Positions 1,146 through 48,056 of a DNA stretch of 64,000 nt are shown here, piece after piece. Each line of letters starts with the position of its first letter. The stretch's first letter is position 1. The notes below the pieces were generated by a model that saw only the letters and a list, made by a program, of their open reading frames with translations, ran no database searches and had not been told where the DNA came from. Source of the stretch: Robiginitalea aestuariiviva (lineage in GTDB: Bacteria; Bacteroidota; Bacteroidia; Flavobacteriales; Flavobacteriaceae); contig NZ_JARPUQ010000001.1 in NCBI RefSeq assembly GCF_029537735.1, forward strand, positions 776,696 to 840,695, given 5' to 3'. Position numbers and translations under genes: made by a program.

Positions 1146-1148
1146 GCT

Positions 1149-2030: not shown

Positions 2031-2036
2031 GCCCCT

Positions 2037-2789: not shown

Positions 2790-2815
2790 GGAACCCGGCA
2801 CCTAAAGCAAGTACC

Positions 2816-4132: not shown

Positions 4133-4231
4133 ACCAACAGGACTTAAAGAAATCTCAATTAACGTTTTTGTAGGAATTATCGGCAATTTTATCGGGTAGG
4201 TTTGGAAGACTAACATTTCAAACCCAACCGT

Positions 4232-4798
4232 ATGATTCGATTATTACTCCTCCTGGTATTATGGCTACTGGGACATGCTGTGCAGGCGCAAACGCAGCCC
4301 TGGAACGCCAGCGTCCATTACCCGATTTCCATTGGCGATAGTTTCCGGTCATCCAATCAGGGGATCATTGGCCTGGAAATTGGCCGAACGTTCGCCCAAT
4401 GGGGTAAAGCGCGCATTGGCGCCTCCCTGGCTGGCAGCTGGTTTGCCACTACGATCATCAACGACTCAGATCCCGTACAGGAAAACAAGTATCGGGACGC
4501 CTTTTTTTCCGGTAAGTTTTTTGCCGAATGGGACCTGGACCAGGCAAAACGCCTACATCTGCAAACAGGCCTGGGCTGGGGCTATCAAACCAGTCGTTTT
4601 TCACCGGCTTTTTTTGATGCCAATGGACGGTTGCAAGGTGAAGAGACCAGCCATGGTCCGGTGATCAGCCTTGGACTGGGTTACGACCTTACCCCCAACT
4701 GGTATGTACAAACCCAGGTAGAAGGTATGGGCCTGTTCGGCAAGTCGCCTACCAGTTATGTAGGGCTCTTGCGCATTGGGACGGGTTTCCGGTTTTAA
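4232..4798 (+). CDS. Outer-membrane beta-barrel protein (porin-like), hypothetical
   Basis: Signal peptide MIRLLLLLVLWLLGHAVQAQ. Alternating amphipathic strands. C-terminal ...GTGFRF (terminal Phe typical of OM beta-barrels). Confidence 0.55.
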   Translation: MIRLLLLLVLWLLGHAVQAQTQPWNASVHYPISIGDSFRSSNQGIIGLEIGRTFAQWGKARIGASLAGSWFATTIINDSDPVQENKYRDAFFSGKFFAEWDLDQAKRLHLQTGLGWGYQTSRFSPAFFDANGRLQGEETSHGPVISLGLGYDLTPNWYVQTQVEGMGLFGKSPTSYVGLLRIGTGFRF

Positions 4799-4868
4799 GG
4801 GCTCCGACCCGCATAATCCCCTGGAAACAGGCCCTAAAAAACCCTGGCGTTCGGTATCTTTGTACCCT

Positions 4869-6095
4869 ATGAAAACACCCGTGCTGGACGTAGCTAGAAT
4901 CCGAAAAGATTTTCCCATCCTTACCCGAGAGGTAAACGGGCAGCCCTTGCTGTACCTGGACAATGCGGCCACCTCCCAGACCCCGGTACAGGTGATCGAC
5001 ACCATCGTAGATTACTACAGCCGATACAACGCCAACATTCACCGGGGGGTGCATACCCTTTCCCAGGAAGCCACCGATGCCTACGAGCAGGCCCGGGTGA
5101 AGATCCAGAAGCATTTTAATGCAGCCAAAGCCCATGAAATCCTTTTTACCTCGGGCACCACGCACGGGATAAACCTGGTAGCCCAGGGGTTTACCGAATT
5201 CCTGAAACCAGGCGATGAAATCTGGGTCTCCGCCCTGGAACACCACTCCAATATTGTACCCTGGCAGATGCTCTGCCAGCGTACGGGCGCCCGGCTGCGG
5301 GTGATCCCCATGGATGAAAAAGGGGAACTGGTGCTGCAACCCTTCCGAGAAGGCCTGTCCAATAAAACCAAGCTGGTCTTCTGCAACCACGTCTCCAATG
5401 CCCTGGGGACGGTAAACGACATTGAAGCCATCATTGCCGCCGCCCATGAGGTTGGCGCTGCCGTGCTGGTAGACGGGGCCCAGGCCGCCCCCCATATTGC
5501 CGCAGACCTGCAGGCCCTGGATGTGGACTTCTATACCGTTTCCGCACACAAACTCTGCGGCCCTACCGGGGTAGGCATCCTGTATGGGAAAGAAGCCTGG
5601 CTGGAAAAACTCCCGCCCTACCAGGGAGGGGGCGAAATGATCGAAACGGTCACCTTTGATAAAACCACCTATGCCGGGCTGCCCCACAAATTCGAAGCCG
5701 GTACCCCGAATATCTGCGGCGGCATCGCCTTTGGCGCAGCCCTGGACTACCTCAATGCCATTGGCATGGATGCCATTGCGGCCTACGAAGACCAATTGCT
5801 GGCCCATGCCACGGAAGCCCTGATGAAGATCCCGGGTATGAAAATTTATGGGGAATCCGCTCGTAAAACCTCCGTGATCTCCTTTAACCTGGAGGGGATT
5901 CACCCCTACGATGTGGGGACCCTGCTGGATAAAATGGGGATTGCGGTGCGTACAGGCCACCACTGCGCCCAGCCCATCATGGACTTTTACCGCATCCCGG
6001 GCACCGTTCGGGCCAGTTTCAGCTTCTACAATACCCTGGAAGAAGCGGACCGCCTGGCGGCCGGGGTAGAGCGGGCCCGGCAGATGCTGTCCTAG
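4869..6095 (+). CDS. sufS: Cysteine desulfurase SufS (class V aminotransferase)
   Basis: MKTPVLDVARIRKDFPIL...; PLP-lysine motif (SAHKLCGPTG); HHCAQP near the C-terminus. The six-frame ORF begins at 4776, but conserved N-terminus starts at ATG 4869. Confidence 0.9.
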   Translation: MKTPVLDVARIRKDFPILTREVNGQPLLYLDNAATSQTPVQVIDTIVDYYSRYNANIHRGVHTLSQEATDAYEQARVKIQKHFNAAKAHEILFTSGTTHGINLVAQGFTEFLKPGDEIWVSALEHHSNIVPWQMLCQRTGARLRVIPMDEKGELVLQPFREGLSNKTKLVFCNHVSNALGTVNDIEAIIAAAHEVGAAVLVDGAQAAPHIAADLQALDVDFYTVSAHKLCGPTGVGILYGKEAWLEKLPPYQGGGEMIETVTFDKTTYAGLPHKFEAGTPNICGGIAFGAALDYLNAIGMDAIAAYEDQLLAHATEALMKIPGMKIYGESARKTSVISFNLEGIHPYDVGTLLDKMGIAVRTGHHCAQPIMDFYRIPGTVRASFSFYNTLEEADRLAAGVERARQMLS

Positions 6096-33304: not shown

Positions 33305-33633
33305 AGGTGTTGGTATTTAGTGTACTCAATATAGGGACTTTCCCTTTCGAAAGGGGCCTTTGCGCGTGCAAAAAATGCGAAAAGGATTACATAGTAGGCC
33401 CGGCCGCAACGGGGCGCCGGCCTTAAGGGTTCCCCCGGCCCACCACTCTGGGTGGCCTGGGGATATTCGGAAAACATCTTTTGGGAATACCGCCTTATTA
33501 TGAGTCGCAAATGTGGGTTATTTGTTACACGTTGAAGACGTATTTTTTGTATATGCGTATAATATTCTATTTATGAGCGCTTTATATGAGTATTTAGCGA
33601 TTATAGTTGTTGTTTGTTCGGGTGTGATACATA

Positions 33634-34285
33634 GCTCCGCAACTGCGTTGCGTCGCTCTATCTCTTCATTTTTTTTGCTGGTCAACCGCTTTTCCTTCCC
33701 TTCGGAATGGTTTTGTTCCGCAACTGCGTTGCGTCACCTCTTTATGTTCATTTTCTTTGCTGGCCCAAAGAAAACGAACCAAAAGAAAGGGCCTTTCCGG
33801 CGAACTTCTGCCCCTTGAAATCTACGTCAGGGGTGCTGCCCGCCGCTGACTTACGCAGCGCTCAGGCGATTGAATCTATAAACTCCTCACTTAAATTCAT
33901 CCACTGGATGAATTTTGGTCGTTCGGCCCTGAAGCGGCTCAACTTCGTTGTCAGCACGCCCTTCCTCGATTTACTACGGTTCAGAACTTATGCCGGGATT
34001 GGGCCCAAACCAAAGAATTGCTAGCGCTAACGAAAGCAAAACTTTACCCAAATCCTAGCCCGTAAATTTTACTTCCGCCGCAGGCGGAAAACCCCCGAGG
34101 TTCAGCGTAAGGTATCGGAAGCGTTAAGAAGGCGGGAAGCCTTGGACCGTCTTTAGCTTCCGGTGCCTGGTTTTGCAGTGCAAACTGCAAAAACGCCTAA
34201 GCGAGGGCGCCATTTTCTTTGCTTCGTTTCTTTTGGGCGAGCAAAAGAAATGAAGAGATAGGGCGACGCGACGCAGTCGCGGAGC
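33634..34285 (+). mobile_element. MITE-like intergenic repeat, copy B (left TIR region partly duplicated)
   Basis: Right end gggcgacgcgacgcagtcgcggagc is the exact reverse complement of the left-end consensus gctccgcgactgcgtcgcgtcgcc seen in copy C. Internal sequence near-identical to copies A and C. Confidence 0.75.
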
Positions 34286-36586: not shown

Positions 36587-37162
36587 TTATTCCTCTCCCT
36601 TCCCGGCGTCGGTATCCTTGTGGGTACAGCTGTAGAAGGCGTCGTAGGCGGCGTACATGGCCTTTTCGGAAGACTTGCCGGCTTCGCGGGCGGCTTCCAG
36701 GGACTTGCGCATAAAGAAGTGCAGGTCTCCCAGCTTGCCTACCGTACCGGCTTTCTTGGCATTCTGGTAGGCCTCTTCGGCAAAATCCCGGGCGTCTATG
36801 GCGGCGCTTTCCGCGTTAATGGAAAAGGTTACCACATCGTCCAGGCCGCAGATCTCTGCGTGGAACTGGGCCTCGGAGGCAAATTGTACGGCCTCGTGGG
36901 CGGCAGCCAGGGCCTGGCCCGCCAGGGCTTCCACCTTGCCGGCGTTGTCTTTGCCATCGGCAAAACGGGCGGCATAGGCGGCGGCTTCGGCATAGACCTT
37001 CAGGGAGTCCGTAAGCTGGCCTACGGTAATCTCAAAGTCCTTTACGTCGTTGATTTCGCTTTTGAACAACGCGCATTGCTGCGCCTGGGCAGAGAGCCCG
37101 CCCAGGACCAAAAGGAGCAGGCCCGCAAATCGGGCTTTCAGGGTAGTTTTTAAAGGCATCAC
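36587..37162 (-). CDS. Secreted Ala-rich hypothetical protein
   Basis: Signal peptide MMPLKTTLKARFAGLLLLVLGGLSAQA; 191 aa. Confidence 0.5.
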   Translation of the reverse strand: MMPLKTTLKARFAGLLLLVLGGLSAQAQQCALFKSEINDVKDFEITVGQLTDSLKVYAEAAAYAARFADGKDNAGKVEALAGQALAAAHEAVQFASEAQFHAEICGLDDVVTFSINAESAAIDARDFAEEAYQNAKKAGTVGKLGDLHFFMRKSLEAAREAGKSSEKAMYAAYDAFYSCTHKDTDAGKGEE

Positions 37163-37286
37163 AGGGGTATCAGTAGGTTATTTACGTATGGTTTTAGCGG
37201 ATTTGGGTCTAGCTATAACGTAAAAATGGGGTGGGGATTGTGTATTGAACAATCACGTCGGTAAGATTAAGTGAATTCTTCTAAAT

Positions 37287-38138
37287 TTGATGAAAATGTA
37301 TAAAATGACTTATTCCGGTCACGAAACCTTTCATTGCAGATTGTTTTGGCTTAAAAAAGGGTACGATTATCTGACTGTTAACGATAATTTTTCGGAAGAG
37401 TCAGGGGTTGATTTAGGTGTAGGTAAGAATATGATTAATTCCATCCGCTATTGGATGAAAGCATTCGGCGCATTGGATGAAGATAACAACCTAAGCGCCT
37501 TATTTCAGCAACTTTTGAATGATGAGGGGTGGGATCCTTACTTGGAACATCAAGGCACTAATTGGTTGCTTCACTATATGATTTGCAAAACGAATAATGC
37601 TAGCATATACCGAGAGATTTTTTCTGAGCTCCGAAAACTAAAACCTGAATTTAGCAAAGAACACTTTGTTTCATTTGCCAAGGGTAATAATTCCCGTCTT
37701 CGTGACAATATACTCGGGAAAGACTTTTCTGTCTTCATTCGCACATACATGGATAAAGGATCTGATGGTGATGGGTTCACTTCAGGTCTGTTAGCCGATC
37801 TAAACTTGGTTCATGAGTTGGGCAAGAACTATTCCGGGGAAATTGTATATCGAATAGAAAATCGATTTCCCGATGATCTCCCGAACAAAATTTTATTATT
37901 CAGCATTTTAGACAATCCCGAATATTCTAATTCTATTGACTTCAATTCACTCTATTCTTCAGTAAATGGGCCTGGAAACATTTTTGCATTGAATGAGAGA
38001 GATCTTGAATCAAAATTGGAAGAATTAGCGGATAATTACCCAAGTATAGTTTACAAAAATGAAGCTGGGGTAAAGGAGTTACAATTCAAACAGCCAATTG
38101 ATAAATGGGAAATACTTGATGAATTTTATGCCGAATAA
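37287..38138 (+). CDS. Hypothetical protein, DUF4007-like (tentative); first gene of island operon
   Basis: 283 aa; N-terminal ...SGHETFHCRLFWLKKGY resembles the DUF4007 N-terminus as I remember it. True start may be ATG 37290 or 37305. A TAAATTTG (-7-like) element sits at 37282-37289. Confidence 0.45.
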   Translation: MMKMYKMTYSGHETFHCRLFWLKKGYDYLTVNDNFSEESGVDLGVGKNMINSIRYWMKAFGALDEDNNLSALFQQLLNDEGWDPYLEHQGTNWLLHYMICKTNNASIYREIFSELRKLKPEFSKEHFVSFAKGNNSRLRDNILGKDFSVFIRTYMDKGSDGDGFTSGLLADLNLVHELGKNYSGEIVYRIENRFPDDLPNKILLFSILDNPEYSNSIDFNSLYSSVNGPGNIFALNERDLESKLEELADNYPSIVYKNEAGVKELQFKQPIDKWEILDEFYAE

Positions 38139-41100
38139 CTATTCCACTTCTGTAAATGTAATTAGAGATGAAAATATTGACTTTAATTACATCCCCACTC
38201 CCAATGCTTCAAAGGCAGCATTAGATATTTTCAATAATATACGCGTAACCCATGCATTTAATATTATTGGGTCTTATGGTACGGGGAAGTCATCCTTTTT
38301 ATGGGCTTTAGAAAAAAGCCTTAAAGGAGAGAAGCCATATTTCGGTTTAAACCGGGGCAATTTTAATGACTCTTTCGGCTTCATTAAACTAATTGGTGAA
38401 TATGCCTCTCTCAGGAGCTCGTTTAATGAATACTTCGGAATTAAGGAGGATTACAAGGGCAATCAACTTCTGTTTGAGAAGATTTTCGAAGAATACGAAA
38501 AACTAAATTCAGGATTGCTTGTCATTATAATTGATGAATTTGGAAAACATTTGGAATACGCTTCTAAGAATTCCCCTGAGGAGGAGATATATTTCATCCA
38601 AAAGTTGGCTGAATTTGTCAATGCCCCAAATAGAAATATAATTCTGATTACCTCCCAACACCAAAATTTTAATGCCTACAGTCAAGGATTAGAAGAAGTC
38701 CTGGCAATTGAATGGAGAAAAATCGAAGGCCGATTTAAACAAATATTGTTCAATGAGCCTATTGAACAGCTGCTTCATTTAGCGTTTAGAGGCATACAAA
38801 AACCAAATCAGAATATTGCCCAATCCGAACTTCTGGATCTATTATCAAGTCACCACTTATTTAAATGTTCTAAGGCTCAATTACAGGAAATTGTTGAAGG
38901 TATTTATCCCTTCGATATCATTTCCATTTATGCATTGGCTATTTGTATTCAGAAATATGGACAAAATGAAAGGTCTCTTTTTAACTTTCTCAATTCAGAC
39001 ACCTTCTTGCAGGCTGAAAAAGGGGCAAAGAGAATTTCATTAGATTTTATCTATGACTATGTCTATTCGGAATTCTATTCATTCATTGTAAGCAAAGTAA
39101 ATCCAGATTATTCTCATTGGGCTATTATAAAGGATTCAATTGAACGAGCGGAATCTCTTGTTGAGGGCGAACAAGACACTGCTCTTAAATTAATCAAATC
39201 AATTGGCTTATTGAATCTACTAGCTACAAAGGGTGCTAGAATCGACCTTTCGTTTTTAAAGTCCTATTATTCTAATATTAAAAATCTGACGTCAGGCATT
39301 AAGGAACTTGAAGCCTATCAGATAATTAGATACAATAAATTCAGTCATTCTTACAAACTATTTGAAGGCACAGATCTGGATATTAACCATGCACTTGCAA
39401 CAGCGCAGAATCAGATAGATGCATCAATTGACATTTATAGCCGACTTGGTGCTCATTTAAACCTTAAGCCAGTAATTGCCAAAGCCATTTCTTTTAACAA
39501 AGGAACTCCTAGGATCTTTGAGTTCATTATATCCAACACTCCTGTTAGTAAGATCCCTATTGGTGAAGTCGACGGTTATATTAATCTAATCCTTAACAAT
39601 GAATTAGATATAACCAATCTTATTCAAAGTTTTGAGGCTAATGATGAGGCAATATTGTTTGGAATACTTAGTAAGTCCCATGAAATAGAACTGTCTCTTA
39701 TTGAAATTGAAAAAGTTGAAACTGTTTTAAAAAACGCCACCAATCAACATGACAAAATTGCGCAACGGGAATTAAAATCCATAAAAGAAAGCCACCTTAA
39801 GTTGTTGGAACACTATGTTACAAAGAGTTTTTACAATGGTAACATCCGTTGGTTTGACAATACAGAAGAATTAACATTTCAAAATATTGGAGCATTAAAT
39901 CAAAGACTTTCTCTTATTTGCCAAAGGGTTTATCACGCCACTCCTACATTCTATCATGAGCTAATAAATAGACATAAAGTTTCCGGTTCCATTTCTACGG
40001 CTCGAAACAACCTATTTAAGGCTCTTGTTCAAAGTTGGGAGGAAGAAAATTTTGGATTTCCGGAAAAAAAATGGCCTGCAGAGAAAACAATCTATTACTC
40101 TCTTTTAAAGCGCACTGGTATTCATCGGAAACAAGAAAATCAATTTGAGCTTGGAAGGCCAGAGGAAGTTTCATTTCATGCGCTATGGGATACGTGCGAT
40201 TCATTTCTCGGTGAATCGGTCCATTATCCCTTGCCTATTACGGAATTGCAGGAGCGATTGAAGACAAAACCATTCAAGTTAAAAGAAGGGTTTATTGATT
40301 TTTGGATCCCCATATTTCTTTTTATTCGTAGAAGTGATTTTGCTTTATATAAAGAGGGTAAATATTTGCCTCAAATTAAAGATAACACCCTGCATTTCTT
40401 AATTCGATCGCCTAAAGATTTCGCCTTAAAGGGCTTTCAACTTAGCGACCTAAGGTTGGAACTTTTTAACCGTTATAGGGCATTCTTACATGGGAAAAAA
40501 GTAAGTCGATTTAATAACAGTTCTTTTATAGAAACAATTCGTCCTTTACTTACCTTTTATCAAGGTCTCCCTGATTATTCCAAGAAAACAAATTCAATTT
40601 CCCTTGAGGTTAAACAATTCAGAGAAGCTATAGTCTCCGCTAAAGACCCGGAGAACACTTTTTTTGTGGACATACCAAACGCATTGGGTTATAATGCTGA
40701 ACTACTAGTAAATGATTCGAAAAATTTTGACGTCTACATTCAAAAACTTCAATCCGCAATTGAAGAACTTCGAACCGCTTTCCAAGCTCTAATCGAGCGT
40801 CTTGAGGCCTGTTTTCAGGAAGAAGTATTCAAGGAGAAGTTGGAATTCCCAGAATATAAATTACGTCTAATTGATCGGTATAGTAACATACGCGATTATA
40901 AACTAAACAATGCTCTAAGGAATTTCATCAATAGGCTAGGTGCGCCAATTGATGATCGTGACTCTTGGATATCTTCACTCTCTTTCGTTGTGCTTAATAA
41001 ACCATTAGAGCAACTTTTAGACACTGAGGAACCATTGTTGAAAGAAAAGTTTATTGAGATCTTTAGGTCATTAGATAATCTTTCCGACCTCTCGAATACT

Positions 41101-41307
41101 AAACCTGTATCGGGTGAACGCTTAGTAAAGCTGGATATCACGACGGAAGAAAATGGCATGTCTAGCCAAATTGTCCGAATTCAAAAAAATGAGTTAGAAG
41201 CCAGAGCTGATCGCATATCAGAAATTGAAGCCTTGCTAGAAAAAGAAAATAGCATGAAAATTCCTATATTGACTGAACTCCTCCGAAAAGCACTTACCAA
41301 TGAGTAA
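38098..41307 (+). CDS. Large P-loop NTPase (1069 aa), uncharacterised
   Basis: Walker A GSYGTGKSS (residues about 59-67), Walker B LLVIIIDEFGK about 100 aa downstream. Long alpha-rich C-terminal region with no recognisable domain. Start probably ATG 38128 (11-nt overlap with the upstream gene). Confidence 0.65.
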   Translation: MINGKYLMNFMPNNYSTSVNVIRDENIDFNYIPTPNASKAALDIFNNIRVTHAFNIIGSYGTGKSSFLWALEKSLKGEKPYFGLNRGNFNDSFGFIKLIGEYASLRSSFNEYFGIKEDYKGNQLLFEKIFEEYEKLNSGLLVIIIDEFGKHLEYASKNSPEEEIYFIQKLAEFVNAPNRNIILITSQHQNFNAYSQGLEEVLAIEWRKIEGRFKQILFNEPIEQLLHLAFRGIQKPNQNIAQSELLDLLSSHHLFKCSKAQLQEIVEGIYPFDIISIYALAICIQKYGQNERSLFNFLNSDTFLQAEKGAKRISLDFIYDYVYSEFYSFIVSKVNPDYSHWAIIKDSIERAESLVEGEQDTALKLIKSIGLLNLLATKGARIDLSFLKSYYSNIKNLTSGIKELEAYQIIRYNKFSHSYKLFEGTDLDINHALATAQNQIDASIDIYSRLGAHLNLKPVIAKAISFNKGTPRIFEFIISNTPVSKIPIGEVDGYINLILNNELDITNLIQSFEANDEAILFGILSKSHEIELSLIEIEKVETVLKNATNQHDKIAQRELKSIKESHLKLLEHYVTKSFYNGNIRWFDNTEELTFQNIGALNQRLSLICQRVYHATPTFYHELINRHKVSGSISTARNNLFKALVQSWEEENFGFPEKKWPAEKTIYYSLLKRTGIHRKQENQFELGRPEEVSFHALWDTCDSFLGESVHYPLPITELQERLKTKPFKLKEGFIDFWIPIFLFIRRSDFALYKEGKYLPQIKDNTLHFLIRSPKDFALKGFQLSDLRLELFNRYRAFLHGKKVSRFNNSSFIETIRPLLTFYQGLPDYSKKTNSISLEVKQFREAIVSAKDPENTFFVDIPNALGYNAELLVNDSKNFDVYIQKLQSAIEELRTAFQALIERLEACFQEEVFKEKLEFPEYKLRLIDRYSNIRDYKLNNALRNFINRLGAPIDDRDSWISSLSFVVLNKPLEQLLDTEEPLLKEKFIEIFRSLDNLSDLSNTKPVSGERLVKLDITTEENGMSSQIVRIQKNELEARADRISEIEALLEKENSMKIPILTELLRKALTNE

Positions 41308-42439
41308 TGTAAGGCATGTACTAGGAATCTCCGGAGGCAAGGATAGCGCAGCCTTAGCGATCTATCTGCACGAGAAATATCCTCAGATAGACTTTGAGTA
41401 TTATTTCTGTGACACAGGGAAAGAATTAGATGAGACTTATCAATTAATTGAAAAGCTGGAGTCTTATTTAGGTAAATCAATCCTAAAACTCGAAAATGAG
41501 GAATTGCATGGATTGAATGAAGACCCCTTCGATTATTACTACAAAATTTTTCGAGGTTACCTCCCCTCATCTCAAGCTCGTTGGTGTACGGCAATGATGA
41601 AGCTAAAACCCTTCGAAAATTTCGTACAAAACGATCCTACTCTTTCGTATGTGGGTATCCGAGGTGACGAGGATCGGGAAGGATATATTTCTAGGCAAGA
41701 AAATATTCAGTCCATCTTCCCATTTCGTAAAAATATTTGGAGCGTAGATGTGCTCAACTTGATTTTTAATCCTAGCAATATTGATCACATTCTCGATTGT
41801 TATAACGAGTATTTAAGCGGTGACAAATTGGATTATGTGCATCATGTTTTTTCTAAACCTATCCCATTTGACCGAAATAGAAGGGCTGAAAAAAATGCAC
41901 TAATAAAAGAAAGTACTGAAAGTCTTCTAAACCTGGGTGTTCCGGAATTCAATCATGTCGTTTTCAAATTCCTTAAATCGACAAACTATAGCGTCGCCTT
42001 ATTGGATGATTTTCCACTCTTAGACAACGAAGATGTTTTGATTCGAGATGATATCTTCAAAATCCTTGAAGAAAGACCAGTGGGTGTCCCGAAATACTAC
42101 GAAAAGATTCCTTTCGAGGTCGATGGTCAAAAAGGAGAATATGCAAGAAGTCGTTCCGGTTGTTATTTCTGTTTCTTTCAGCAAAAAATAGAATGGGTTT
42201 GGCTTTATGAACAACATCCCAATTTGTTTAGGAAAGCCATGCATTATGAAAATGTAGATGAACATTTTACTTGGACATCCGATGAAAGTTTAGAGGAATT
42301 AATCCAACCTGAAAGAATCCGCCAAATTAAGCTGGATCATATTCATAGATCCAATCGTGAAAAGTCAAATAATTCCCCCTTTCTGATTGACATTTTGGAA
42401 GGTACCGAAAGGGATGGGTGTAATACTTGTTTTTTGTAG
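41300..42439 (+). CDS. PP-loop ATP-pyrophosphatase of the PAPS-reductase family (DndC/BrxP-like)
   Basis: SGGKDS PP-loop motif at residues 11-16 (LGISGGKDSAALA). C-terminal Cys cluster (CYFCFF...CNTCF). 8-nt overlap with the upstream ATPase gene. Confidence 0.8.
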   Translation: MSNVRHVLGISGGKDSAALAIYLHEKYPQIDFEYYFCDTGKELDETYQLIEKLESYLGKSILKLENEELHGLNEDPFDYYYKIFRGYLPSSQARWCTAMMKLKPFENFVQNDPTLSYVGIRGDEDREGYISRQENIQSIFPFRKNIWSVDVLNLIFNPSNIDHILDCYNEYLSGDKLDYVHHVFSKPIPFDRNRRAEKNALIKESTESLLNLGVPEFNHVVFKFLKSTNYSVALLDDFPLLDNEDVLIRDDIFKILEERPVGVPKYYEKIPFEVDGQKGEYARSRSGCYFCFFQQKIEWVWLYEQHPNLFRKAMHYENVDEHFTWTSDESLEELIQPERIRQIKLDHIHRSNREKSNNSPFLIDILEGTERDGCNTCFL

Positions 42440-43518
42440 TCATGGACTATCATTTTAAATCAATGAAAATAAGCGATATCGTAGACTTGATAGACAAAGA
42501 CAAAGTCAATCTATCGCCTTATTATCAACGCAAGGATATTTGGACGAAAAATGATCAGGAAGCACTAATTGATTCTATTCTTAACAACTATCCATTACCA
42601 AATTTATTTATTTATAATAATGAAGGGATAATGGAAGTCGTTGATGGTCAACAAAGAATTAGAACTATTTATCGGTTTGTTAAAAACAATATTTCATCTT
42701 CCAGGGGTGAATATTTCAATTCTATTAAAAAAGAAGAATTCCTAAATTATAAGCTTCCTATTATCGAAATATTCAACTTGGATGCCGATGATGATATAGC
42801 TGAATTCTATGTTTTAGTTAATAAAAAAGGTAAGCACTTAACAACACCTGAATTATATAAAGCTGAGTTTCATGACAAAAAATTTATGAAGCTCGCTGAA
42901 GAGATTTTGGATGAGCAATCATTCATTGACCTCAATTTGTTTACAGAGGCAAGCTCAAAAAGAATGAATGATAGAAGCTATGTTGAAGAATTATTGGCCT
43001 ATTTGAAATACGGAATACAGGACAAAAAATCAAATATTGAAACTATATATAAGAACGATATTAGTGACGAGGAGTATGAATTTCTAAAGGACCTTTTTAT
43101 AAAAGTTTTAACCCCGATTCACGCTTTAAATGATGTCCATAATTTGAGCAGGACACGATATAAACAAAAGAATGATTTCTATACTTTGTTCAACTTTGTT
43201 CATCAAAATTTAAATCAGGATCTCAAAACATTCAAAGCACAATATAAAGTCCTCTTGTTAATTTCAGAATATATATCTCCTTCAAACGACGATTGTGAAC
43301 CTCTTAAGAACTATGCTTTGGATTGTGTTTCACAATCCAATTCCAAAAAAGCGCGGGAAAGGAGATTGATGTTTTTCAATTACATTTTAAAGAACAAATC
43401 TGAATCATTAGAGGATAATGAAGTTCTTGGTGAGATTGCCAATTACATTGAAAAAGGACAATTTTTCCCCTTTACCTTAAATAAGGTAGATGAATATTAC
43501 TTGTTAGATATTAAATGA
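42427..43518 (+). CDS. DUF262 (ParB-like/GmrSD N-terminal-like) domain protein
   Basis: DGQQR motif (VVDGQQRIRTI) preceded by an NYPLPNLF segment. 363 aa. Start possibly ATG 42442. Confidence 0.75.
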   Translation: MFFVVMDYHFKSMKISDIVDLIDKDKVNLSPYYQRKDIWTKNDQEALIDSILNNYPLPNLFIYNNEGIMEVVDGQQRIRTIYRFVKNNISSSRGEYFNSIKKEEFLNYKLPIIEIFNLDADDDIAEFYVLVNKKGKHLTTPELYKAEFHDKKFMKLAEEILDEQSFIDLNLFTEASSKRMNDRSYVEELLAYLKYGIQDKKSNIETIYKNDISDEEYEFLKDLFIKVLTPIHALNDVHNLSRTRYKQKNDFYTLFNFVHQNLNQDLKTFKAQYKVLLLISEYISPSNDDCEPLKNYALDCVSQSNSKKARERRLMFFNYILKNKSESLEDNEVLGEIANYIEKGQFFPFTLNKVDEYYLLDIK

Positions 43519-44522
43519 GTATTGTGAAAATTACTTTCCCAAAAACAATAGTCATTAATAAATATGTAATTAGGATAGATCTATCCAAACCTTTCATGAA
43601 TATCGTCAATATAGATGGGGTGGATTATATACCATATTACTTAGATAACCATTCGCCAGGAAATAGAGGAGGTAATTCTCATGTCCTAAAGCTAATTGAA
43701 GCACAATCCTTCGATGAGGATGAAGGCTATCCCGATGAACCTGATTTAGTTATAAAAATCTGCAACTCAGAAAAAGGGAGAAAGCGTGAGGATAACAGGA
43801 GTAAAAGATTTGATATAGAAATTCAGGCTTTACTTGAGTGTTCTGCTAAACGTATACCTAATCTAATGAAAATATATCACAATGGATTGGCGCAAATTGA
43901 AGACAAACGAGGATTAAAGTGCCAGCATAGGTTCTATACTATGCAATATGCGGCATGCGATTTATCTACATATCTTGCTAATAATAAGCTGAGCCTGATT
44001 GATAAAATTCAACTTTTAATTGATATCGCCAATTCACTGAAGAATCTTTGGGAGTTAAAGTATTATCATAGGGATCTCAAGCCTGATAACATTCTTTTTA
44101 TTGACAATGAATGGGTTATTTCAGATTTGGGATTAATCGATAAGAGGGATGAAAATTTTGAAATCGATAAACCAGCAGAATGGATTGGTCCAAGAGGTTG
44201 GATGAGTCCCGAATCAATGAACAAATTTTTGTGTGAAGGGAGGCCTTGGGAAAGTCATCATGACTGTAAGATCGATCATAGTTCAGATCTATATCAGCTT
44301 GGTAAGATTTATTGGTTTATTCTTCAAGGTAACTCACCAGAAGGTGGCATTAGACGTTCAGATTTTCAAATTCAAGATGAAGGGCTTTATCAAATCATTA
44401 GAACTTTGCTGAACAATTCGAAAAATCGAAGAATTTCTGATATAGAAGACTTAATAGGCTTATTAAAAAGGCAATATTTTAGATCTATCGAAAAATATTC
44501 CTTTCAAAAGTCCATAGCTTAG
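43515..44522 (+). CDS. Hanks-type Ser/Thr protein kinase-like protein
   Basis: Glycine-rich loop GNRGGNSHV, beta3 Lys LVIKIC, alphaC Glu EIQAL, catalytic loop YHRDLKPDNILF, DLG (DFG variant), SPE (APE variant). 4-nt overlap with the upstream gene. Confidence 0.75.
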   Translation: MSIVKITFPKTIVINKYVIRIDLSKPFMNIVNIDGVDYIPYYLDNHSPGNRGGNSHVLKLIEAQSFDEDEGYPDEPDLVIKICNSEKGRKREDNRSKRFDIEIQALLECSAKRIPNLMKIYHNGLAQIEDKRGLKCQHRFYTMQYAACDLSTYLANNKLSLIDKIQLLIDIANSLKNLWELKYYHRDLKPDNILFIDNEWVISDLGLIDKRDENFEIDKPAEWIGPRGWMSPESMNKFLCEGRPWESHHDCKIDHSSDLYQLGKIYWFILQGNSPEGGIRRSDFQIQDEGLYQIIRTLLNNSKNRRISDIEDLIGLLKRQYFRSIEKYSFQKSIA

Positions 44523-44527
44523 TAAAG

Positions 44528-45130
44528 ATGAATAGTTTAATCTCATCATTCTCATTTTATGAGATTCTAAGAATATTACTTCCCGGGACATACCTTTATT
44601 TGGGATTAAAGGAGTCAATTATCGGCGAAATAGCTAGAAACTTAAATACTGATCCTGGGATTTACCAAAACACTTTAGTTGAGGTTATTTTAATTTGTGT
44701 GTTTGGATTGTTTATCTATGCTTGGGATTTTCCAAAAATGTTCAAGAAATTTCAAAAAGATCTACCCACAAATAAAATTCAAAAAATTACGGGCATCGAA
44801 TACAAAAAGGTGTTAATTAATTATTATGATTTCTATTCGACATTATCAGAAAGTGAAAAATTAAAGACTGAGAAATATAGTGGATTCTTTCACCTCAGTG
44901 TAAACCTTTCATGCTGTGCCTTTTTTCTTATTTGCCTTGAAATCATTTCAATAATGAAAATGGGTTTAACCAATTTTTTATTGTTGAATATCTTGATTTT
45001 TGTATTATCTATCTCAACGGTATTTTTGATCTATACTAGAAGACTAAAAGTTGCTTTTATTAGGCATTTGGACCAACATTTTGAGTCGAAATACTTTCAA
45101 AAATTACAATCAGGAATTAATAACCCCTAA
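44528..45130 (+). CDS. Four-TM integral membrane protein, hypothetical (possible effector)
   Basis: Four hydrophobic segments (ILRILLPGTYLYLGL, VEVILICVFGLFIYAW, CCAFFLICLEIISIM, LLLNILIFVLSISTVFLIY). Last gene of the plus-strand operon. Confidence 0.5.
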   Translation: MNSLISSFSFYEILRILLPGTYLYLGLKESIIGEIARNLNTDPGIYQNTLVEVILICVFGLFIYAWDFPKMFKKFQKDLPTNKIQKITGIEYKKVLINYYDFYSTLSESEKLKTEKYSGFFHLSVNLSCCAFFLICLEIISIMKMGLTNFLLLNILIFVLSISTVFLIYTRRLKVAFIRHLDQHFESKYFQKLQSGINNP

Positions 45131-47616
45131 TCCTCTAGTCCTTGCATCATCTCTTCCATACCTCCAAAATTCAAAATAAAAGTGGAATAATAATGATCAA
45201 AAAGATCCTTTAGGTATTGTCCTAATTCCACATGCTCTAATTCCTCCTTACCCTCCATTTTCTGGCGAATCTCATACCCGCGATTTTTACTAATTGTATA
45301 TAAGAACAGAGTATGGAAATAAACAGAAGTATAAAACTTCCTATTCGCCAGTTCCAATTGCTCTTGGTTGGGATTTTTATACTTAGAGATAAAGTTTCTT
45401 AGGACAGCCGAATCCATATTTATAAAAATGGATTTCAAAACGTCTCCCTCGGCCTCAGGCACCATGACCGTCTGCCAATCTATTGCCAATCCTGTTGCCT
45501 CTTCTACCGCTTCCCATGCAACTTGAGCTTCAATTTCAGGATTCGGTTCCTTATATGTGAATATTAGTTGTGGTAGGCCTAATGGCTCTTGCCCTTCGTC
45601 CTCCTTGGGTTTCTTTTCCTTAGGCTTTTCTTTGTCTGCAATTTTCACCCAAAAAATTTCATCAAAGTCTTTCCCAGGACTTGTTAGGGTAACCTTCATT
45701 TGAACGGCATCGCCCACTGAAACCTCATCTTTTGGATTCAGGGAGATCTTTATGGTTCCTCTATTTGGACTACTTCGAACGATATTAAATAACTCGGATG
45801 GCTCCTTTGGCTCCCCTGGTTTATTCCCACCTTGAGTCTCATTATTCTGAATATTTAGAATGGCAATCTGAAGATCACCTGGTTCCTCAATACGATCAAA
45901 ATAGTCGTTTTCTACATCCGTAGTAAACTTGATGATTCGCTCCCCTCCCAAGGGGATTTTAGTGATTTCCGTTTTACCATCGTTTCTCGCCTCTACCTTA
46001 AACTGTGATGGGAATCGTTGGGGATTAAATGGCACTACTTCTTTCTCGTGTTTAGAAGGCCTTTTATTCTGTTTTGATTTCTTATCCTTTTCGAGATCTA
46101 ATTTGAATGTCTGATTAAGTAATTTTAAAAGATCAGAATCCAATGGTAAATCCTTGGTGAAGCTTTTTAATAATTCCCCTGTGTTTGAAGAGGTATCTAT
46201 GTTTACCGCTTCCTTCCTTCTCTTTTCAATTTCAGCCAGCCGCCCATCTTTTTTACTTAGTTGGGTTGCCAAATACTGTCTGAGATATTGTGTTTCATCG
46301 CCGTCCTTAAGGCGATCCCTTGAGGCCATAAAGAGTTCTTTGCGGAACTCATACTTCATCTCTGTACAATCCACATGAATAAGCAAATGGTTCTTAAGGA
46401 GATTTAGTTTTAAAGACCTTGTGATGAACTCAGAGGTGTAATTTCCGTGAACCTGTCCGTTTAATGAAAACATTACAGACATATAGTTCTTGAAGTATCT
46501 GTTCTGAATAACTTCCTTGGAACGTTTTAAATCAAAGTCTCGAATTTTCGTTTTAAATACGAAACAGGAAACTTTCATCTTCCCTATTGTATCGTCTTCA
46601 AATATCTCCGAAAATTTGTCGTCTAAATATTCTGATTCTTCGCTGGTTAACCTTCGTTTAAGTCCATACAAATCTTGAACCAATACCTTGTTATTAGGGT
46701 ACCTTTCTGCAGTATCTTTTGTAAGGATTGGGAGTGCAGGACTGAACAAAAACTCATTTATGCTTTGATTCAGGTCTTGCGCAAAACCAGAATACCCCTT
46801 AGGAAACTGATACGAATACATCTTAATAATGGTTCCTGTCTGGAATAACCTGTCTTCCAATCCGAGATCCAATTGAGTAATTGGAAAAGAAGGAATTTTA
46901 CCATCAATTAATAGATACTCATACCAAGTTTCCTTTGCATGGTCAGATTCCCTTTTGGGGTGTTCCCGAATAAGGGTAAAACCAAAATCACCATCATTAG
47001 TGAATCGCTTTGAGGCAATTAACTGATACCGTTTTTTCCCACAAAAAACAATAGCACCACTTCCTCCCATATTGTACTTACCCTGAACAAAATGTACATC
47101 ATTCTTATTACCTCTTAGTAAGGACAGAAAGGTGTTTTCAAAATCGGCCGGATGTTGACCTTCGCCATTATCGTAGACCAAAACCGAGGTTGGATATTGG
47201 CTTCTTTGAGTACGTGGACCCTTTCCATCGGCGATGATTTGAATATCCTGTGCCTGTTTCCGTCTAAAGCTTTGAAGATCCCAATTATTATCAGGAAAAA
47301 ATAATTCGATTGCCTCGTCCATTGATTTAGGAGCATTCTCGGAGGCTGGATCTATTTTCTCTTCTTGACATCTTTTGGTCAGAAGTGCATCAATAGAATT
47401 GGTAACTTTCTCAATTAGAGCCGCTACTGGATTGGATTGTTGGTTCTTTACAACACCATAATTGCTTTTATTGTTGCCGAGAGGTTTCCAATTGGAATCT
47501 TCGAAAATTTTTGGTGATTCATCAATAATGGCAACGAGATCCTCCTCATCTTTTGCGTGGAAAAGTTGGAAAAAGATCTTTTCCGTTTCTATCTTTTTCA
47601 TTCGCGCTGAATACAA
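45127..47616 (-). CDS. GHKL-superfamily (Bergerat-fold) ATPase, 829 aa
   Basis: N-box AALIEKVTNSIDALL (ExxxNxxDA), G1 box LVYDNGEGQ (DxGxG), G2 box GKYNMGGSGA. Long C-terminal region uncharacterised. Convergent with the plus-strand operon (4-nt overlap of stops). Confidence 0.7.
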   Translation of the reverse strand: MYSARMKKIETEKIFFQLFHAKDEEDLVAIIDESPKIFEDSNWKPLGNNKSNYGVVKNQQSNPVAALIEKVTNSIDALLTKRCQEEKIDPASENAPKSMDEAIELFFPDNNWDLQSFRRKQAQDIQIIADGKGPRTQRSQYPTSVLVYDNGEGQHPADFENTFLSLLRGNKNDVHFVQGKYNMGGSGAIVFCGKKRYQLIASKRFTNDGDFGFTLIREHPKRESDHAKETWYEYLLIDGKIPSFPITQLDLGLEDRLFQTGTIIKMYSYQFPKGYSGFAQDLNQSINEFLFSPALPILTKDTAERYPNNKVLVQDLYGLKRRLTSEESEYLDDKFSEIFEDDTIGKMKVSCFVFKTKIRDFDLKRSKEVIQNRYFKNYMSVMFSLNGQVHGNYTSEFITRSLKLNLLKNHLLIHVDCTEMKYEFRKELFMASRDRLKDGDETQYLRQYLATQLSKKDGRLAEIEKRRKEAVNIDTSSNTGELLKSFTKDLPLDSDLLKLLNQTFKLDLEKDKKSKQNKRPSKHEKEVVPFNPQRFPSQFKVEARNDGKTEITKIPLGGERIIKFTTDVENDYFDRIEEPGDLQIAILNIQNNETQGGNKPGEPKEPSELFNIVRSSPNRGTIKISLNPKDEVSVGDAVQMKVTLTSPGKDFDEIFWVKIADKEKPKEKKPKEDEGQEPLGLPQLIFTYKEPNPEIEAQVAWEAVEEATGLAIDWQTVMVPEAEGDVLKSIFINMDSAVLRNFISKYKNPNQEQLELANRKFYTSVYFHTLFLYTISKNRGYEIRQKMEGKEELEHVELGQYLKDLFDHYYSTFILNFGGMEEMMQGLED

Positions 47617-47666
47617 TTATTAAACTTGCTGCTCTTACTTCTGACGCTTAACTATTTGCTTTAATT

Positions 47667-47888
47667 CTATTGTTTTATGAAAATATCTAATAGCTCTCTG
47701 AGCTCTTTCGCCTTCTGTTTGTCGAACTGAATATTCTGTTTTGACCCTCGCCCCCTTGTTAAATCGCCCATAGCATAAGTTCTTATTTGCATCCAATGTT
47801 TTTCGATAATAACATCCCCTATCACACTCCCTTGGCGAATACTAATGTTATCCTCTGTTTCTTTGATAATTCTTCCTAAAACTGCCAT
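47667..47888 (-). CDS. Small hypothetical protein upstream of the GHKL ATPase gene
   Basis: 73-aa ORF starting MAVLGRIIKETEDN...; AT-rich codon usage like the rest of the island; no recognisable motif. Confidence 0.3.
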   Translation of the reverse strand: MAVLGRIIKETEDNISIRQGSVIGDVIIEKHWMQIRTYAMGDLTRGRGSKQNIQFDKQKAKELRELLDIFIKQ

Positions 47889-48056
47889 GATTTTATTTTC
47901 AAATAGTATGATATCTAGAATAACATTGTGCCGGATTCGAAATAAACCCCGCCCATAATTGAACATGGATAATAGCCTAATTCGTAAAAATCCCTCTCAC
48001 ATCTCATGAGTTAGAGCTGAGTTCACTCCTGGATTCGATATGAAGTTAGCTTCGGC

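What the first reader, a model, noticed from the sequence alone, without database searches (positions are those of the whole stretch)
37165..48056. 10.9-kb AT-rich genomic island with a candidate multi-gene defence/DNA-modification system
GC content falls abruptly from about 60% to about 30-35% at about 37.17 kb and returns to about 60% at about 48.06 kb, directly visible in the sequence. All nine ORFs inside use AT-rich codons, unlike every other gene in the window, which argues for recent horizontal acquisition. The island holds no integrase, transposase, tRNA or methyltransferase. The gene set combines a PP-loop DndC/BrxP-like enzyme, a DUF262 ParB/DndB-like protein, a large P-loop NTPase, a eukaryotic-like Ser/Thr kinase, a 4-TM protein and a GHKL ATPase. 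This mixture recalls pieces of Dnd/Ssp phosphorothioation, BREX type 4 and kinase-based abortive-infection systems but matches none of them as a whole, as far as I can tell from memory.
Basis: partly seen in the sequence, partly recalled or inferred. Interest (0 to 1): 0.88.

Follow-up and report, generated by a model that had tools for sequence, protein, structure and literature searches.

The report
Phosphorothioation defence island with new partners
This horizontally acquired island is an Ssp-type system predicted to mark the host's DNA backbone with sulfur, and it is coupled to partner genes not described before (a MORC-like ATPase and a DNA-sensor/protein-kinase/membrane-protein trio) that probably turn the mark into virus defence.

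Summary
The GC drop is real: 0.355 inside 37.17-48.06 kb against 0.572 outside, and GC3 0.30-0.37 against 0.72-0.76. The window matches Robiginitalea sp. M366.

SspA is absent, but a SufS-type desulfurase lies 31 kb away.

The other genes are not covered by any described system, yet they are not random neighbours.
- The 829-aa GHKL protein (g7) is MORC/MutL-like by fold. In 51 of 53 related loci with enough flank it lies next to SspBCD, including on Hymenobacter and Ensifer plasmids.
- Between SspD and g7 lies a variable slot. It usually holds a ParB-superfamily protein (DUF262 or DndB-like) plus a swappable partner.
- That partner is a Ser/Thr kinase (as here), a ThsA-like SIR2, the g6 membrane protein, or an unknown protein.
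- Kinase-type loci that lack g7 often carry PbeABCD, a known PT-linked restriction module, instead.

Best reading: SspBCD writes the mark, DUF262 reads DNA and drives the kinase/membrane effector, and g7 is the restriction-like ATPase.

This is a new variant of a known kind. The mechanism of the partner genes is inferred, not shown.

The parts
37165..48056 (.). AT-rich horizontally acquired island (whole cassette)
   Evidence: GC 0.355 against 0.572 outside. GC3 0.30-0.37 against 0.72-0.76. Synteny with R. sediminis and R. biformata ends exactly at 48057.
37287..38138 (+). g1 = SspB (DUF4007; DNA-binding/nicking subunit of the PT writer). The likely true start is the ATG at 37305.
   Evidence: PADLOC SspB 6.4e-88. 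Pfam DUF4007 1e-62. Crystallised SspB 6JUF/6LB9 at 1.8e-21. Present in all related loci that are complete.
38098..41307 (+). g2 = SspC (large ATPase, BrxC/PglY-like). A Walker A motif GSYGTGKSS lies near residue 60.
   Evidence: PADLOC SspC E=0, 1166.6 bits, full length. BrxC 1.2e-57. The motif is read from the translation.
41300..42439 (+). g3 = SspD (PAPS-reductase-fold ATP pyrophosphatase). PP-loop SGGKDS at residues 11-16; C-terminal CxxC pairs.
   Evidence: PADLOC SspD 2.9e-92. Pfam PAPS_reduct 3.5e-9. DndC and BrxP hits are weak only. 50-70% identical in related loci.
42427..43518 (+). g4 = ParB-superfamily DUF262 NTPase plus a helical C-terminal domain (NsnA/DndB/SspE-N+M architecture) with no nuclease domain. 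Inferred DNA/PT sensor. The likely start is 42442.
   Evidence: Pfam GmrSD_N 3.2e-22, with no GmrSD_C/DUF1524 hit. PADLOC NsnA 8.3e-27, with no SspE hit. The P-YQR---W and DGQQR motifs are invariant. Always adjacent to the kinase.
43515..44522 (+). g5 = minimal Hanks-type Ser/Thr kinase. Its start overlaps the g4 stop (ATGA). Inferred effector or signal transducer.
   Evidence: Pfam Pkinase 1e-15. K81, E102, HRD185-187, N192, DLG204-206 and SPE231-233 are invariant in 33 homologs. 93 close homologs. All 9 kinase-anchored loci hold SspD and DUF262. A ThsA-like SIR2 occupies the same slot in other loci.
44528..45130 (+). g6 = 200-aa membrane protein (3-4 hydrophobic segments). Inferred accessory membrane effector.
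   Evidence: Hydropathy analysis. A real family of 67 cluster representatives. Homologs follow a kinase in L172 and L177, and follow DUF262 directly with no kinase in L178. g7 is convergent in L177 and L178. Weak Csx27 similarity, 1.8e-4.
45127..47616 (-). g7 = 829-aa MORC/MutL-like GHKL + S5-transducer ATPase with Ig-like and unassigned C-terminal domains. It is the conserved Ssp partner and the inferred restriction-like component. The NCBI start is 47601.
47667..47966 (-). g8 = 99-aa ORF upstream of g7. Function unknown; membership of the system is doubtful.
   Evidence: No family hit in any library. The only homolog is in L091 (64% identity), at the other end of that cassette next to SspB.
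4776..6095 (+). SufS-type cysteine desulfurase in the core genome. Candidate trans-acting sulfur donor replacing the missing SspA.
   Evidence: Pfam Aminotran_5 6.7e-151. 27% identical to the SspA of locus L003, E=3e-27. Precedent for SufS/IscS substitution: PMC12914056.

Best explanation
The island is a mobile, self-contained Ssp-type DNA phosphorothioation (PT) defence cassette.

1. Writer (identified by homology): SspB, SspC and SspD are predicted to install sequence-specific single-strand PT marks on host DNA. Sulfur probably comes from the housekeeping SufS, because SspA is missing (inferred).

2. Sensor and effector (inferred from anatomy and comparative genomics): g4 is a ParB/DUF262 NTPase with the architecture of the PT-sensing N-terminal and middle part of SspE, but it has no nuclease. 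It reads DNA or PT status. It controls the translationally coupled Ser/Thr kinase g5 and the small membrane protein g6. Together these act as an abortive-infection-type effector arm, replacing the HNH nuclease of SspE.

3. Restriction-like component (inferred): g7 is a MORC/MutL-like GHKL ATPase and the family-wide partner of this SspBCD lineage. It acts on unmarked invading DNA, probably by ATP-driven clamping, looping or compaction and not by cleavage of its own.
For: Writer:
- SspB, SspC and SspD hits are near full-length and very strong.
- A SufS-type desulfurase is present in the window.

Linkage of DUF262 and kinase to Ssp:
- All 9 kinase-anchored loci hold SspD and DUF262. SspB and SspC are present in all but L005, which is cut at the contig end. 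L087 has a permuted gene order.
- The g4 stop and g5 start overlap.
- Identities of DUF262 and kinase to the window copies co-vary across loci, rho 0.77.

Predicted activity:
- The kinase catalytic residues and the DUF262 NTPase motifs are invariant.

Effector role of the kinase:
- The same slot holds DUF262 + ThsA-like SIR2 (PADLOC ThsA 4.6e-35), DUF262 + a g6-like TM protein without a kinase, or DndB-like + unknown partners.

g7:
- 51 of 53 loci with enough flank carry SspD next to g7.
- The same cassette is bracketed by recombinases on a Hymenobacter plasmid. g7 lies next to SspABCD on an Ensifer plasmid.
- g7 and PbeABCD never co-occur among the 25 kinase-type loci: Pbe is in 0 of 18 with g7 and 4 of 7 without.
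- Its fold is MORC/SMCHD1/MutL-like.
- A distant g7 relative in a haloarchaeon sits beside a DNA methyltransferase.

Literature:
- SspE's DUF262 domain senses PT.
- 84% of sspBCD clusters have no known partner (PMC8092258).
- ParB-DUF262 acts as a sensor with polymorphic effectors in Menshen (PMC12065111).
- MORC and paraMORC ATPases occur in restriction-modification operons (PMC2292703).
Against: - No experiment exists. PT modification in this strain, defence activity and every partner function are untested.
- g4 does not hit SspE models. Its PT sensing is argued by analogy of architecture only.
- DndB-family proteins are known in Dnd systems as negative regulators of modification. They occupy the same slot in 12 of 56 loci, so a regulatory role for the ParB-type gene is plausible.
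- No nuclease fold or motif was found in g7. Its C-terminal roughly 150 residues are poorly modelled.
- The g7 loci were retrieved through g7 itself and are mostly Bacteroidota at 54% identity or more. Linkage is lost in relatives at 35% identity or less (L089, Pontibacillus).
- The g7/Pbe exclusivity rests on small, non-randomly sampled numbers.
Confidence: 0.6

Rival explanations
1. The DUF262-kinase(-TM) trio is a regulator of the modification machinery, not an immune effector. Like DndB in Dnd systems, g4 would limit or tune PT writing, with the kinase phosphorylating Ssp proteins. g7 alone would be the restriction component.
For: DndB-family ParB proteins fill the same slot in 12 of 56 loci. 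DndB is described as a negative regulator of PT modification (PMC10853773). g4 gives a weak DGQHR/DndB-type hit. Kinases control modification activity in the proposed models for PglW in BREX type 2 (PMC12839542).
Against: The kinase's positional equivalents include a ThsA-like SIR2 and a small multi-TM protein. Both are typical toxic effectors, not regulators. g4 is closer to the Menshen sensor NsnA (8e-27) than to DndB.
Confidence: 0.22
2. The island is a mosaic of independent systems that merely cluster as a defence island: an orphan epigenetic SspBCD, a stand-alone DUF262/kinase abortive-infection pair, and a stand-alone GHKL protein.
For: Defence genes cluster in general. Neighbouring loci also carry unrelated defence genes such as TIR, AbiH, STAND and GmrSD. 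Single-gene kinase defences exist, for example the PD-T4-6 and Stk2 hits. Distant g7 relatives occur without Ssp.
Against: 51 of 53 g7 loci hold SspD. All 9 kinase-anchored loci hold SspD, and SspB and SspC are missing only from the truncated L005. Relative order and orientation are conserved. Linkage persists across Bacteroidota, Balneolales and Alphaproteobacteria and through gene-order permutation. No member of the kinase family was seen outside an Ssp context.
Confidence: 0.1
3. g7 is itself a nuclease-type restriction enzyme (paraMORC3-like, with a C-terminal endonuclease) that cleaves unmodified DNA, and not a non-nucleolytic clamp.
For: Several paraMORC families carry C-terminal restriction-endonuclease-fold, TIR or HxH domains (PMC2292703). 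g7 has a conserved but unassigned C-terminal region, residues 683-829. It occupies the slot taken elsewhere by the nuclease-containing PbeABCD.
Confidence: 0.2

Closest known systems
SspABCD-SspE (single-strand DNA phosphorothioation defence; Xiong et al. 2020, Gao et al. 2022)
   Same: SspB, SspC and SspD are clear homologs in the canonical order. A DUF262 ParB-type NTPase gene follows SspD, as sspE does.
   Different: There is no SspA in the cassette. The DUF262 protein is 363 aa, lacks the DUF1524/HNH nuclease and does not hit SspE models. It is paired with a Ser/Thr kinase and a membrane protein. A MORC-like GHKL gene is an additional conserved partner.
SspABCD-SspFGH (Wang et al. 2021, PMC8092258)
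   Same: Both pair SspBCD with a multi-gene partner that need not degrade DNA. SspFGH suppresses phage DNA replication and is toxic without PT.
   Different: No island protein has the FtsK/SpoIIIE-like region described for SspH. The partners here are a GHKL ATPase, a ParB-type NTPase, a kinase and a TM protein.
PbeABCD (PT-linked restriction module; Xiong et al. 2019, PMC6459918; re-annotated in PMC10853773)
   Same: In sister loci (L001, L005, L084, L086) a PbeABCD block follows the same SspBCD-DUF262-kinase core, in the position that g7 takes here.
   Different: The window has no Pbe genes. Pbe was described with Dnd systems, not Ssp systems.
Menshen (NsnABC; PMC12065111)
   Same: g4 has the NsnA architecture (ParB-DUF262 plus a helical DNA-binding domain; PADLOC NsnA 8e-27). 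The logic of one ParB sensor with polymorphic effector partners is the same.
   Different: There is no NsnB ABC ATPase and no NsnC RNase. The module is embedded in a PT modification operon.
Prokaryotic MORC/paraMORC GHKL ATPases of restriction-modification operons (Iyer, Abhiman and Aravind 2008, PMC2292703)
   Same: g7 has a GHKL + S5 module with intact ATP-binding motifs, and MORC3/SMCHD1/MutL are its best structural matches. It is linked to a DNA-modification enzyme set and is laterally mobile.
   Different: The linked modification is backbone phosphorothioation, not methylation. The window has no partner helicase or nuclease. The Pfam HATPase_c_3 hit is below threshold, so g7 is a divergent family with Ig-like C-terminal domains.
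Kinase-based defences (Stk2, PD-T4-6, MADS mad6, PglW of BREX type 2)
   Same: g5 is an active-looking Hanks-type kinase inside a defence locus.
   Different: Similarity is at kinase-domain level only (51-64 bits). g5 has no sensor domain of its own and is strictly coupled to a DUF262 protein and to SspBCD.

Membership tests
SspABCD phosphorothioation writer | SspB: DUF4007 DNA-binding/nicking protein | tested here: met
   Pfam DUF4007 1e-62. PADLOC SspB 6.4e-88. PDB SspB 6JUF at 1.8e-21.
SspABCD phosphorothioation writer | SspC: large ATPase of about 1,000 aa with a Walker A motif | tested here: met
   PADLOC SspC E=0, 1166.6 bits over positions 1-1029 of 1039. GTGKS is visible in the translation.
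SspABCD phosphorothioation writer | SspD: PAPS-reductase-fold PP-loop ATP pyrophosphatase | tested here: met
   PADLOC SspD 2.9e-92. Pfam PAPS_reduct 3.5e-9. SGGKDS motif.
SspABCD phosphorothioation writer | SspA cysteine desulfurase in or beside the cluster | tested here: not met
   There is none in the island. A SufS-type Aminotran_5 gene lies at 4776-6095. The literature accepts replacement by IscS or SufS (PMC12914056), so this does not exclude membership. Sister loci L003, L005, L084, L085 and L094 do carry SspA.
SspABCD phosphorothioation writer | PT-modified DNA at a consensus motif in the host genome | not testable with these tools
   Needs LC-MS/MS or PT-seq of genomic DNA.
SspE | N-terminal DUF262 NTPase with QR / DGQQR motifs | tested here: met
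   Pfam GmrSD_N 3.2e-22. The motifs are invariant.
SspE | C-terminal DUF1524 (His-Me/HNH) nuclease | tested here: not met
   g4 is 363 aa with no GmrSD_C/DUF1524 hit and no PADLOC SspE hit. No SspE chain appears in the PDB search.
SspFGH | Three-gene partner including an FtsK/SpoIIIE-like SspH | tested here: not met
   No island protein has an FtsK/SpoIIIE-type hit in Pfam or NCBIfam. The SspFGH sequences themselves were not available for direct comparison.
PbeABCD | PbeA (HKD nuclease + SF2 helicase) and PbeC (CxC ABC ATPase) | tested here: not met
   tblastn with PbeA and PbeC from L001 gives no hit in window 30-55 kb. Both are present in the sister loci L001, L005, L084 and L086.
BREX type 4 | BrxP fusion (PAPS reductase + DUF4007) with BrxC, PglZ and BrxL | tested here: not met
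   The PAPS-reductase and DUF4007 domains are on separate genes. BrxP hits are weak (1e-4 and 2e-10). No PglZ or BrxL hit.
Dnd (DndABCDE / DndFGH) | DndC, DndD and DndE | tested here: not met
   DndC hits are marginal only (9e-7; NCBIfam 20.7 bits against a cutoff of 290). No DndD or DndE hit.
Menshen (NsnABC) | NsnA (ParB-DUF262 + ParBDB) followed by the NsnB ABC ATPase and the NsnC effector | tested here: not met
   An NsnA-like protein is present (8.3e-27), but there is no NsnB or NsnC. A kinase and a TM protein follow instead.
MORC/paraMORC GHKL ATPases of R-M systems | GHKL ATP-binding motifs plus an S5-fold transducer domain | tested here: met
MORC/paraMORC GHKL ATPases of R-M systems | Conserved neighbourhood with a DNA-modification enzyme and a nuclease or helicase | tested here: inconclusive
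   A modification enzyme set (SspBCD) is linked in 51 of 53 loci. No helicase or nuclease gene is linked in the window. Assignment to a specific paraMORC family was not possible.

The most novel reading that the evidence does not exclude
The MORC-like GHKL protein is a non-nucleolytic restriction factor guided by the phosphorothioate mark. On this reading it is a bacterial counterpart of eukaryotic MORC/SMCHD1 silencing that clamps or compacts unmarked invading DNA. In parallel, the ParB-DUF262 protein converts PT or DNA sensing into a phosphorylation signal through the kinase and the membrane protein, triggering abortive infection. Together these would form a two-armed epigenetic immune system and would account for part of the roughly 84% of sspBCD clusters that have no known restriction partner.
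Probability: 0.2. Interest if true: 0.85.

Novelty: new variant of a known kind. Interest (0 to 1): 0.68.

Why it matters
Most sspBCD clusters (about 84% in PMC8092258) have no known restriction partner. How the sulfur mark is converted into immunity in those genomes is an open question.

This locus and about 60 relatives point to concrete, testable candidates:
- a highly conserved MORC-like ATPase, 54-78% identical across Bacteroidota and about 46% in Alphaproteobacteria;
- a plug-in slot in which a ParB-type sensor is combined with a kinase, a SIR2 protein, a membrane protein or another effector.

The kinase-type core (SspBCD-DUF262-kinase, there with PbeABCD) is also common in Bacteroides thetaiotaomicron and human-gut assemblies (cluster P0072: 144 sequences, 289 index blocks). 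The hypothesis can therefore be tested in a tractable model organism.

If the GHKL protein acts without cutting DNA, it would link bacterial restriction to the MORC/SMCHD1 type of epigenetic silencing.

Tried and rejected
- The genome-contig scan with the kinase alignment chose generic kinase motifs (HRDLKPDN). It returned almost only unrelated kinases; only L004 and L005 were useful.
- Flanking direct or inverted repeats that could mark an integration site: nothing convincing. No tRNA target.
- Sigma-70 promoter and terminator scans gave counts no higher than shuffled sequence, and they do not model Bacteroidota promoters.
- Clean empty site in relatives: not demonstrable. Only the right flank is syntenic.
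- PDB sequence searches for g3, g4 and g7: no hits, or only BrxU at 0.002 for the g4 profile.
- A separate AlphaFold model of g7 residues 531-829 was worse than the full-length model (pLDDT 58), so I ran no fold search on it.
- The afdb50 library was not available.
- PHROGs and NCBIfam gave nothing for g6, g7 or g8.
- No kinase-family homolog was found on plasmids.
- Conserved island ends: only L091 shares the g8 segment.
- Literature searches for Ssp with kinase, DUF4007 with kinase, phosphorothioate with GHKL, and recent SspABCD papers found no prior description. The library lacks most subscription-journal papers, so this absence is not proof.
- BREX type 4, Dnd and Menshen membership were considered and rejected on missing core genes.

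Full report
OBSERVATION.
The compositional break is real and sharp. GC is 0.56-0.61 on both sides and 0.29-0.42 inside. Island GC is 0.355 against 0.572 for the rest of the window. GC3 of the island genes is 0.295-0.371, against 0.718-0.761 in the flanking genes. The transitions fall at about 37,150-37,200 and 48,050-48,100.

The island holds eight credible ORFs, not nine. Six are co-directional and tightly packed on the + strand (g1-g6). Two are on the - strand (g7, g8), and g7 is convergent with g6. There is no tRNA in the window, no flanking repeat pair, and no integrase, transposase or methyltransferase hit among the island proteins.

The kinase and the GHKL protein are 100% identical to proteins of Robiginitalea sp. 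M366. In R. sediminis and R. biformata the right flank is collinear, and synteny stops exactly at the stop codon of the Gfo/Idh/MocA gene, which is the island edge. Neither relative has the island there. Their sequence beyond that point differs from each other and from this window (R. sediminis has an NB-ARC/TPR protein and a PIF1 helicase). The site is therefore a variable hotspot and not a clean empty site.

WHAT THE GENES ARE.
g1, g2 and g3 are SspB, SspC and SspD, the writer of single-strand DNA phosphorothioation.
- g1: PADLOC SspB 6.4e-88, Pfam DUF4007 1e-62, crystallised SspB 6JUF/6LB9 at 1.8e-21.
- g2: PADLOC SspC E=0, 1167 bits, full length, with a GTGKS Walker A motif.
- g3: PADLOC SspD 2.9e-92, Pfam PAPS_reduct, and an SGGKDS PP-loop.

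Hits to DndC and BrxP are marginal, and no DndD, DndE, PglZ or BrxL is present, so Dnd and BREX type 4 are excluded. SspA is absent from the island. A SufS-type cysteine desulfurase lies at 4776-6095 (Aminotran_5 6.7e-151; 27% identical to the SspA of a sister locus). Replacement of SspA/DndA by IscS or SufS is accepted in the literature (PMC12914056).

g4 is a 363-aa ParB-superfamily DUF262 protein.
- Pfam GmrSD_N 3.2e-22.
- The P-YQR---W and DGQQR motifs are invariant.
- It has a helical C-terminal half, the architecture described for NsnA, DndB and the N-terminal and middle part of SspE (PMC12065111).
- It has no DUF1524 nuclease and no SspE model hit. Its best PADLOC hit is NsnA at 8.3e-27.

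g5 is a minimal Hanks-type Ser/Thr kinase. All catalytic residues are invariant across 33 homologs. Its ATG overlaps the g4 stop codon.

g6 is a 200-aa protein with 3-4 hydrophobic segments. It belongs to a real family of 67 cluster representatives.

g7 (829 aa) has the GHKL motifs: E69/N73/D76, D149-G-E-G and G184-G-x-G, all invariant. Its model (pLDDT 68) aligns best with the following:

| Search | Best matches |
|---|---|
| Foldseek | ParE 2e-8, TRAP1 7e-6 |

The GHKL + S5 module is followed by helices, a Lys/Glu-rich disordered linker, an Ig-like beta-sandwich, and an unassigned alpha/beta C-terminus. No nuclease was detected.

g8 (99 aa) matches nothing.

ARE THE PARTNERS REALLY PART OF THE SYSTEM?
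The kinase family is small, with 93 close homologs, almost all from Bacteroidota and relatives. All 9 loci anchored on it hold SspD and the DUF262 protein next to the kinase. These are the window, a B. thetaiotaomicron-type contig, Balneolales, Marinoscillum, Sediminibacterium and others. SspB and SspC are present wherever the contig allows (L005 is cut). In L087 the order is permuted to DUF262-kinase-SspBCD and the linkage survives. Identities of DUF262 and kinase to the window copies co-vary across 24 loci (rho 0.77).

The g7 family is much larger, with more than 3,200 hits. Of 82 loci fetched through g7, 53 have at least 6 kb beyond its 3' end, and 51 of those contain SspD, usually as a convergent SspB-C-D.

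Annotated plasmids confirm this independently.
- Hymenobacter plasmid: recombinase | g7 (54% identical) | SIR2 | DUF262 | PAPS reductase | SspC | DUF4007 | recombinase fragments.
- Ensifer adhaerens plasmid: SspA-B-C-D, then two genes, then g7 (46% identical).

Linkage fades in distant relatives. One haloarchaeal homolog (25% identical) sits beside a DNA methyltransferase instead.

A VARIABLE SLOT.
Between SspD and g7 the loci carry alternative cassettes. Counts are out of 56 loci with both g7 and SspD:

| Slot content | Loci |
|---|---|
| DUF262 + kinase | 18 |
| DndB-family protein, with or without a 165-179-aa unknown | 12 |
| NsnA-like DUF262 + ThsA-like SIR2 (ThsA 4.6e-35) | 8 |
| Second GHKL (HATPase_c_3) + GIY-YIG nuclease | 7 |
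| Three-gene set of unknowns | 7 |
| Other | remainder |

g6 belongs to this slot too. Its homologs follow a kinase in L172 and L177. In L178 a g6 homolog follows the DUF262 gene directly with no kinase. g7 is convergent in L177 and L178. The recurring grammar in most of these cassettes is 'ParB-superfamily protein + swappable second gene', as in the Menshen system (PMC12065111).

Kinase-type loci that lack g7 carry PbeABCD in 4 of 7 cases (PbeA E=0, 1075 bits). PbeABCD is a PT-linked restriction module (PMC6459918; re-annotated in PMC10853773). The other three carry an Mrr-like gene, a GHKL/helicase/STAND set, or nothing. Pbe is never found together with g7 (0 of 18 against 4 of 7; about p = 0.003, but the sampling is small and biased).

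MECHANISM.
Supported by strong homology but not by experiment: SspBCD is a PT writer.

Inferred:
(i) SufS supplies the sulfur.
(ii) g4 binds DNA and senses PT status through its NTPase cycle, as SspE's DUF262 domain does. It controls g5, with g6 as a membrane effector. Because SIR2 and TM proteins occupy the same position, the kinase is more likely an abortive-infection-type effector than a housekeeping regulator.
(iii) g7 is the restriction-like component that this lineage uses where others use PbeABCD. I found no nuclease in it, and its closest folds are DNA-clamping ATPases (MORC, SMCHD1, MutL). I therefore favour ATP-driven clamping, looping or compaction of unmarked DNA, in line with the model proposed for prokaryotic MORCs in restriction-modification operons (PMC2292703). 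This step is the weakest.

Rival readings:
- The ParB-kinase pair is a DndB-like regulator of modification (0.22).
- g7 has a cryptic C-terminal nuclease (0.2).
- The modules are independent and merely co-located (0.1). The linkage statistics argue against this one.

COMPARISON AND NOVELTY.
The writer is a member of the SspABCD family, with every defining feature met except a linked SspA. The locus is not SspE-type (no DUF1524), not SspFGH-type (no FtsK-like protein), not Pbe-type in this genome, and not Menshen, BREX type 4 or Dnd.

I found no paper describing SspBCD coupled to a MORC-like GHKL protein, or to a DUF262 + Ser/Thr kinase pair. The searched library is incomplete for subscription journals. 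Wang et al. (PMC8092258) explicitly noted that about 84% of sspBCD clusters lack sspE or sspFGH and proposed that other partners exist.

I therefore class this as a new variant of a known kind. It is a solid known core with partner modules that are recurrent, mobile and so far undescribed.

VERDICT.
Interest is moderately high, because the locus supplies specific and testable candidates for the missing effector side of Ssp systems.

Noticed in passing
window 90-6095: A run of co-directional ORFs ends in a SufS-type cysteine desulfurase (4776-6095, Aminotran_5 6.7e-151). It is probably the housekeeping suf operon and a candidate sulfur donor for the SspA-less island. Only the desulfurase was annotated.
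   Followed up: partly
window 33250-34000: A second, smaller GC dip (0.45-0.46) lies in otherwise 0.55-0.60 DNA. It contains a 105-aa ORF (33707-34024) with no Pfam hit.
   Followed up: no
window 37282-37289: TAAATTTG matches the Bacteroidota -7 promoter consensus TAnnTTTG (consensus recalled from my own knowledge). It overlaps the mechanical TTG start of g1. Together with the SspB profile starting at residue 6-9, this suggests the real start is the ATG at 37305.
   Followed up: no
window 43515-44522: The public annotation of the kinase (P0001, 308 aa) starts 27 codons later than the 335-aa ORF. Homologs align from residue 3-6, so the longer form, whose ATG overlaps the g4 stop, is the likely true gene.
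   Followed up: partly
L001, L005, L084, L086: PbeABCD was described as a Dnd-linked module. Here it is coupled to SspBCD-DUF262-kinase. In L084 and L005 SspA lies beyond the Pbe block. The L001 type is very common in Bacteroides thetaiotaomicron and human-gut assemblies (kinase cluster P0072: 144 sequences, 289 index blocks).
   Followed up: partly
L094, L096, L097 (for example L094 7046-21483): A subgroup has g7 co-directional with SspBCD, followed by a second GHKL (HATPase_c_3, 589 aa) + GIY-YIG nuclease pair and a convergent SspA. RteC and an HTH_17 excisionase-like gene lie upstream, which points to carriage on a Bacteroidetes conjugative transposon.
   Followed up: partly
L084 7795-8864: A 225-aa unknown gene and a nucleoside 2-deoxyribosyltransferase-like gene (130 aa) are inserted between SspD and the DUF262 gene.
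   Followed up: no
L107 12491-15430, L105, L138, L004 11011-13881; L170 13210-15906: NB-ARC + TPR STAND proteins of about 900-980 aa recur next to g7 or the kinase. One also lies in the R. sediminis region adjoining the same Gfo/Idh/MocA gene. This may be another defence module that favours the same hotspot.
   Followed up: no
L176 (Halogeometricum borinquense pHBOR02) 1789-5963: A distant g7 homolog (25% identity) is divergently paired with a site-specific DNA methyltransferase. This suggests the GHKL family can partner with methylation as well as phosphorothioation.
   Followed up: no
window 47667-47966 and L091 10985-11242: The only homolog of g8 (64% identity, with an in-frame stop in the fetched frame) lies at the opposite end of its cassette, beside SspB. 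This is what would be expected if the cassette were a circularly permuted mobile unit. It is a single instance.
   Followed up: partly
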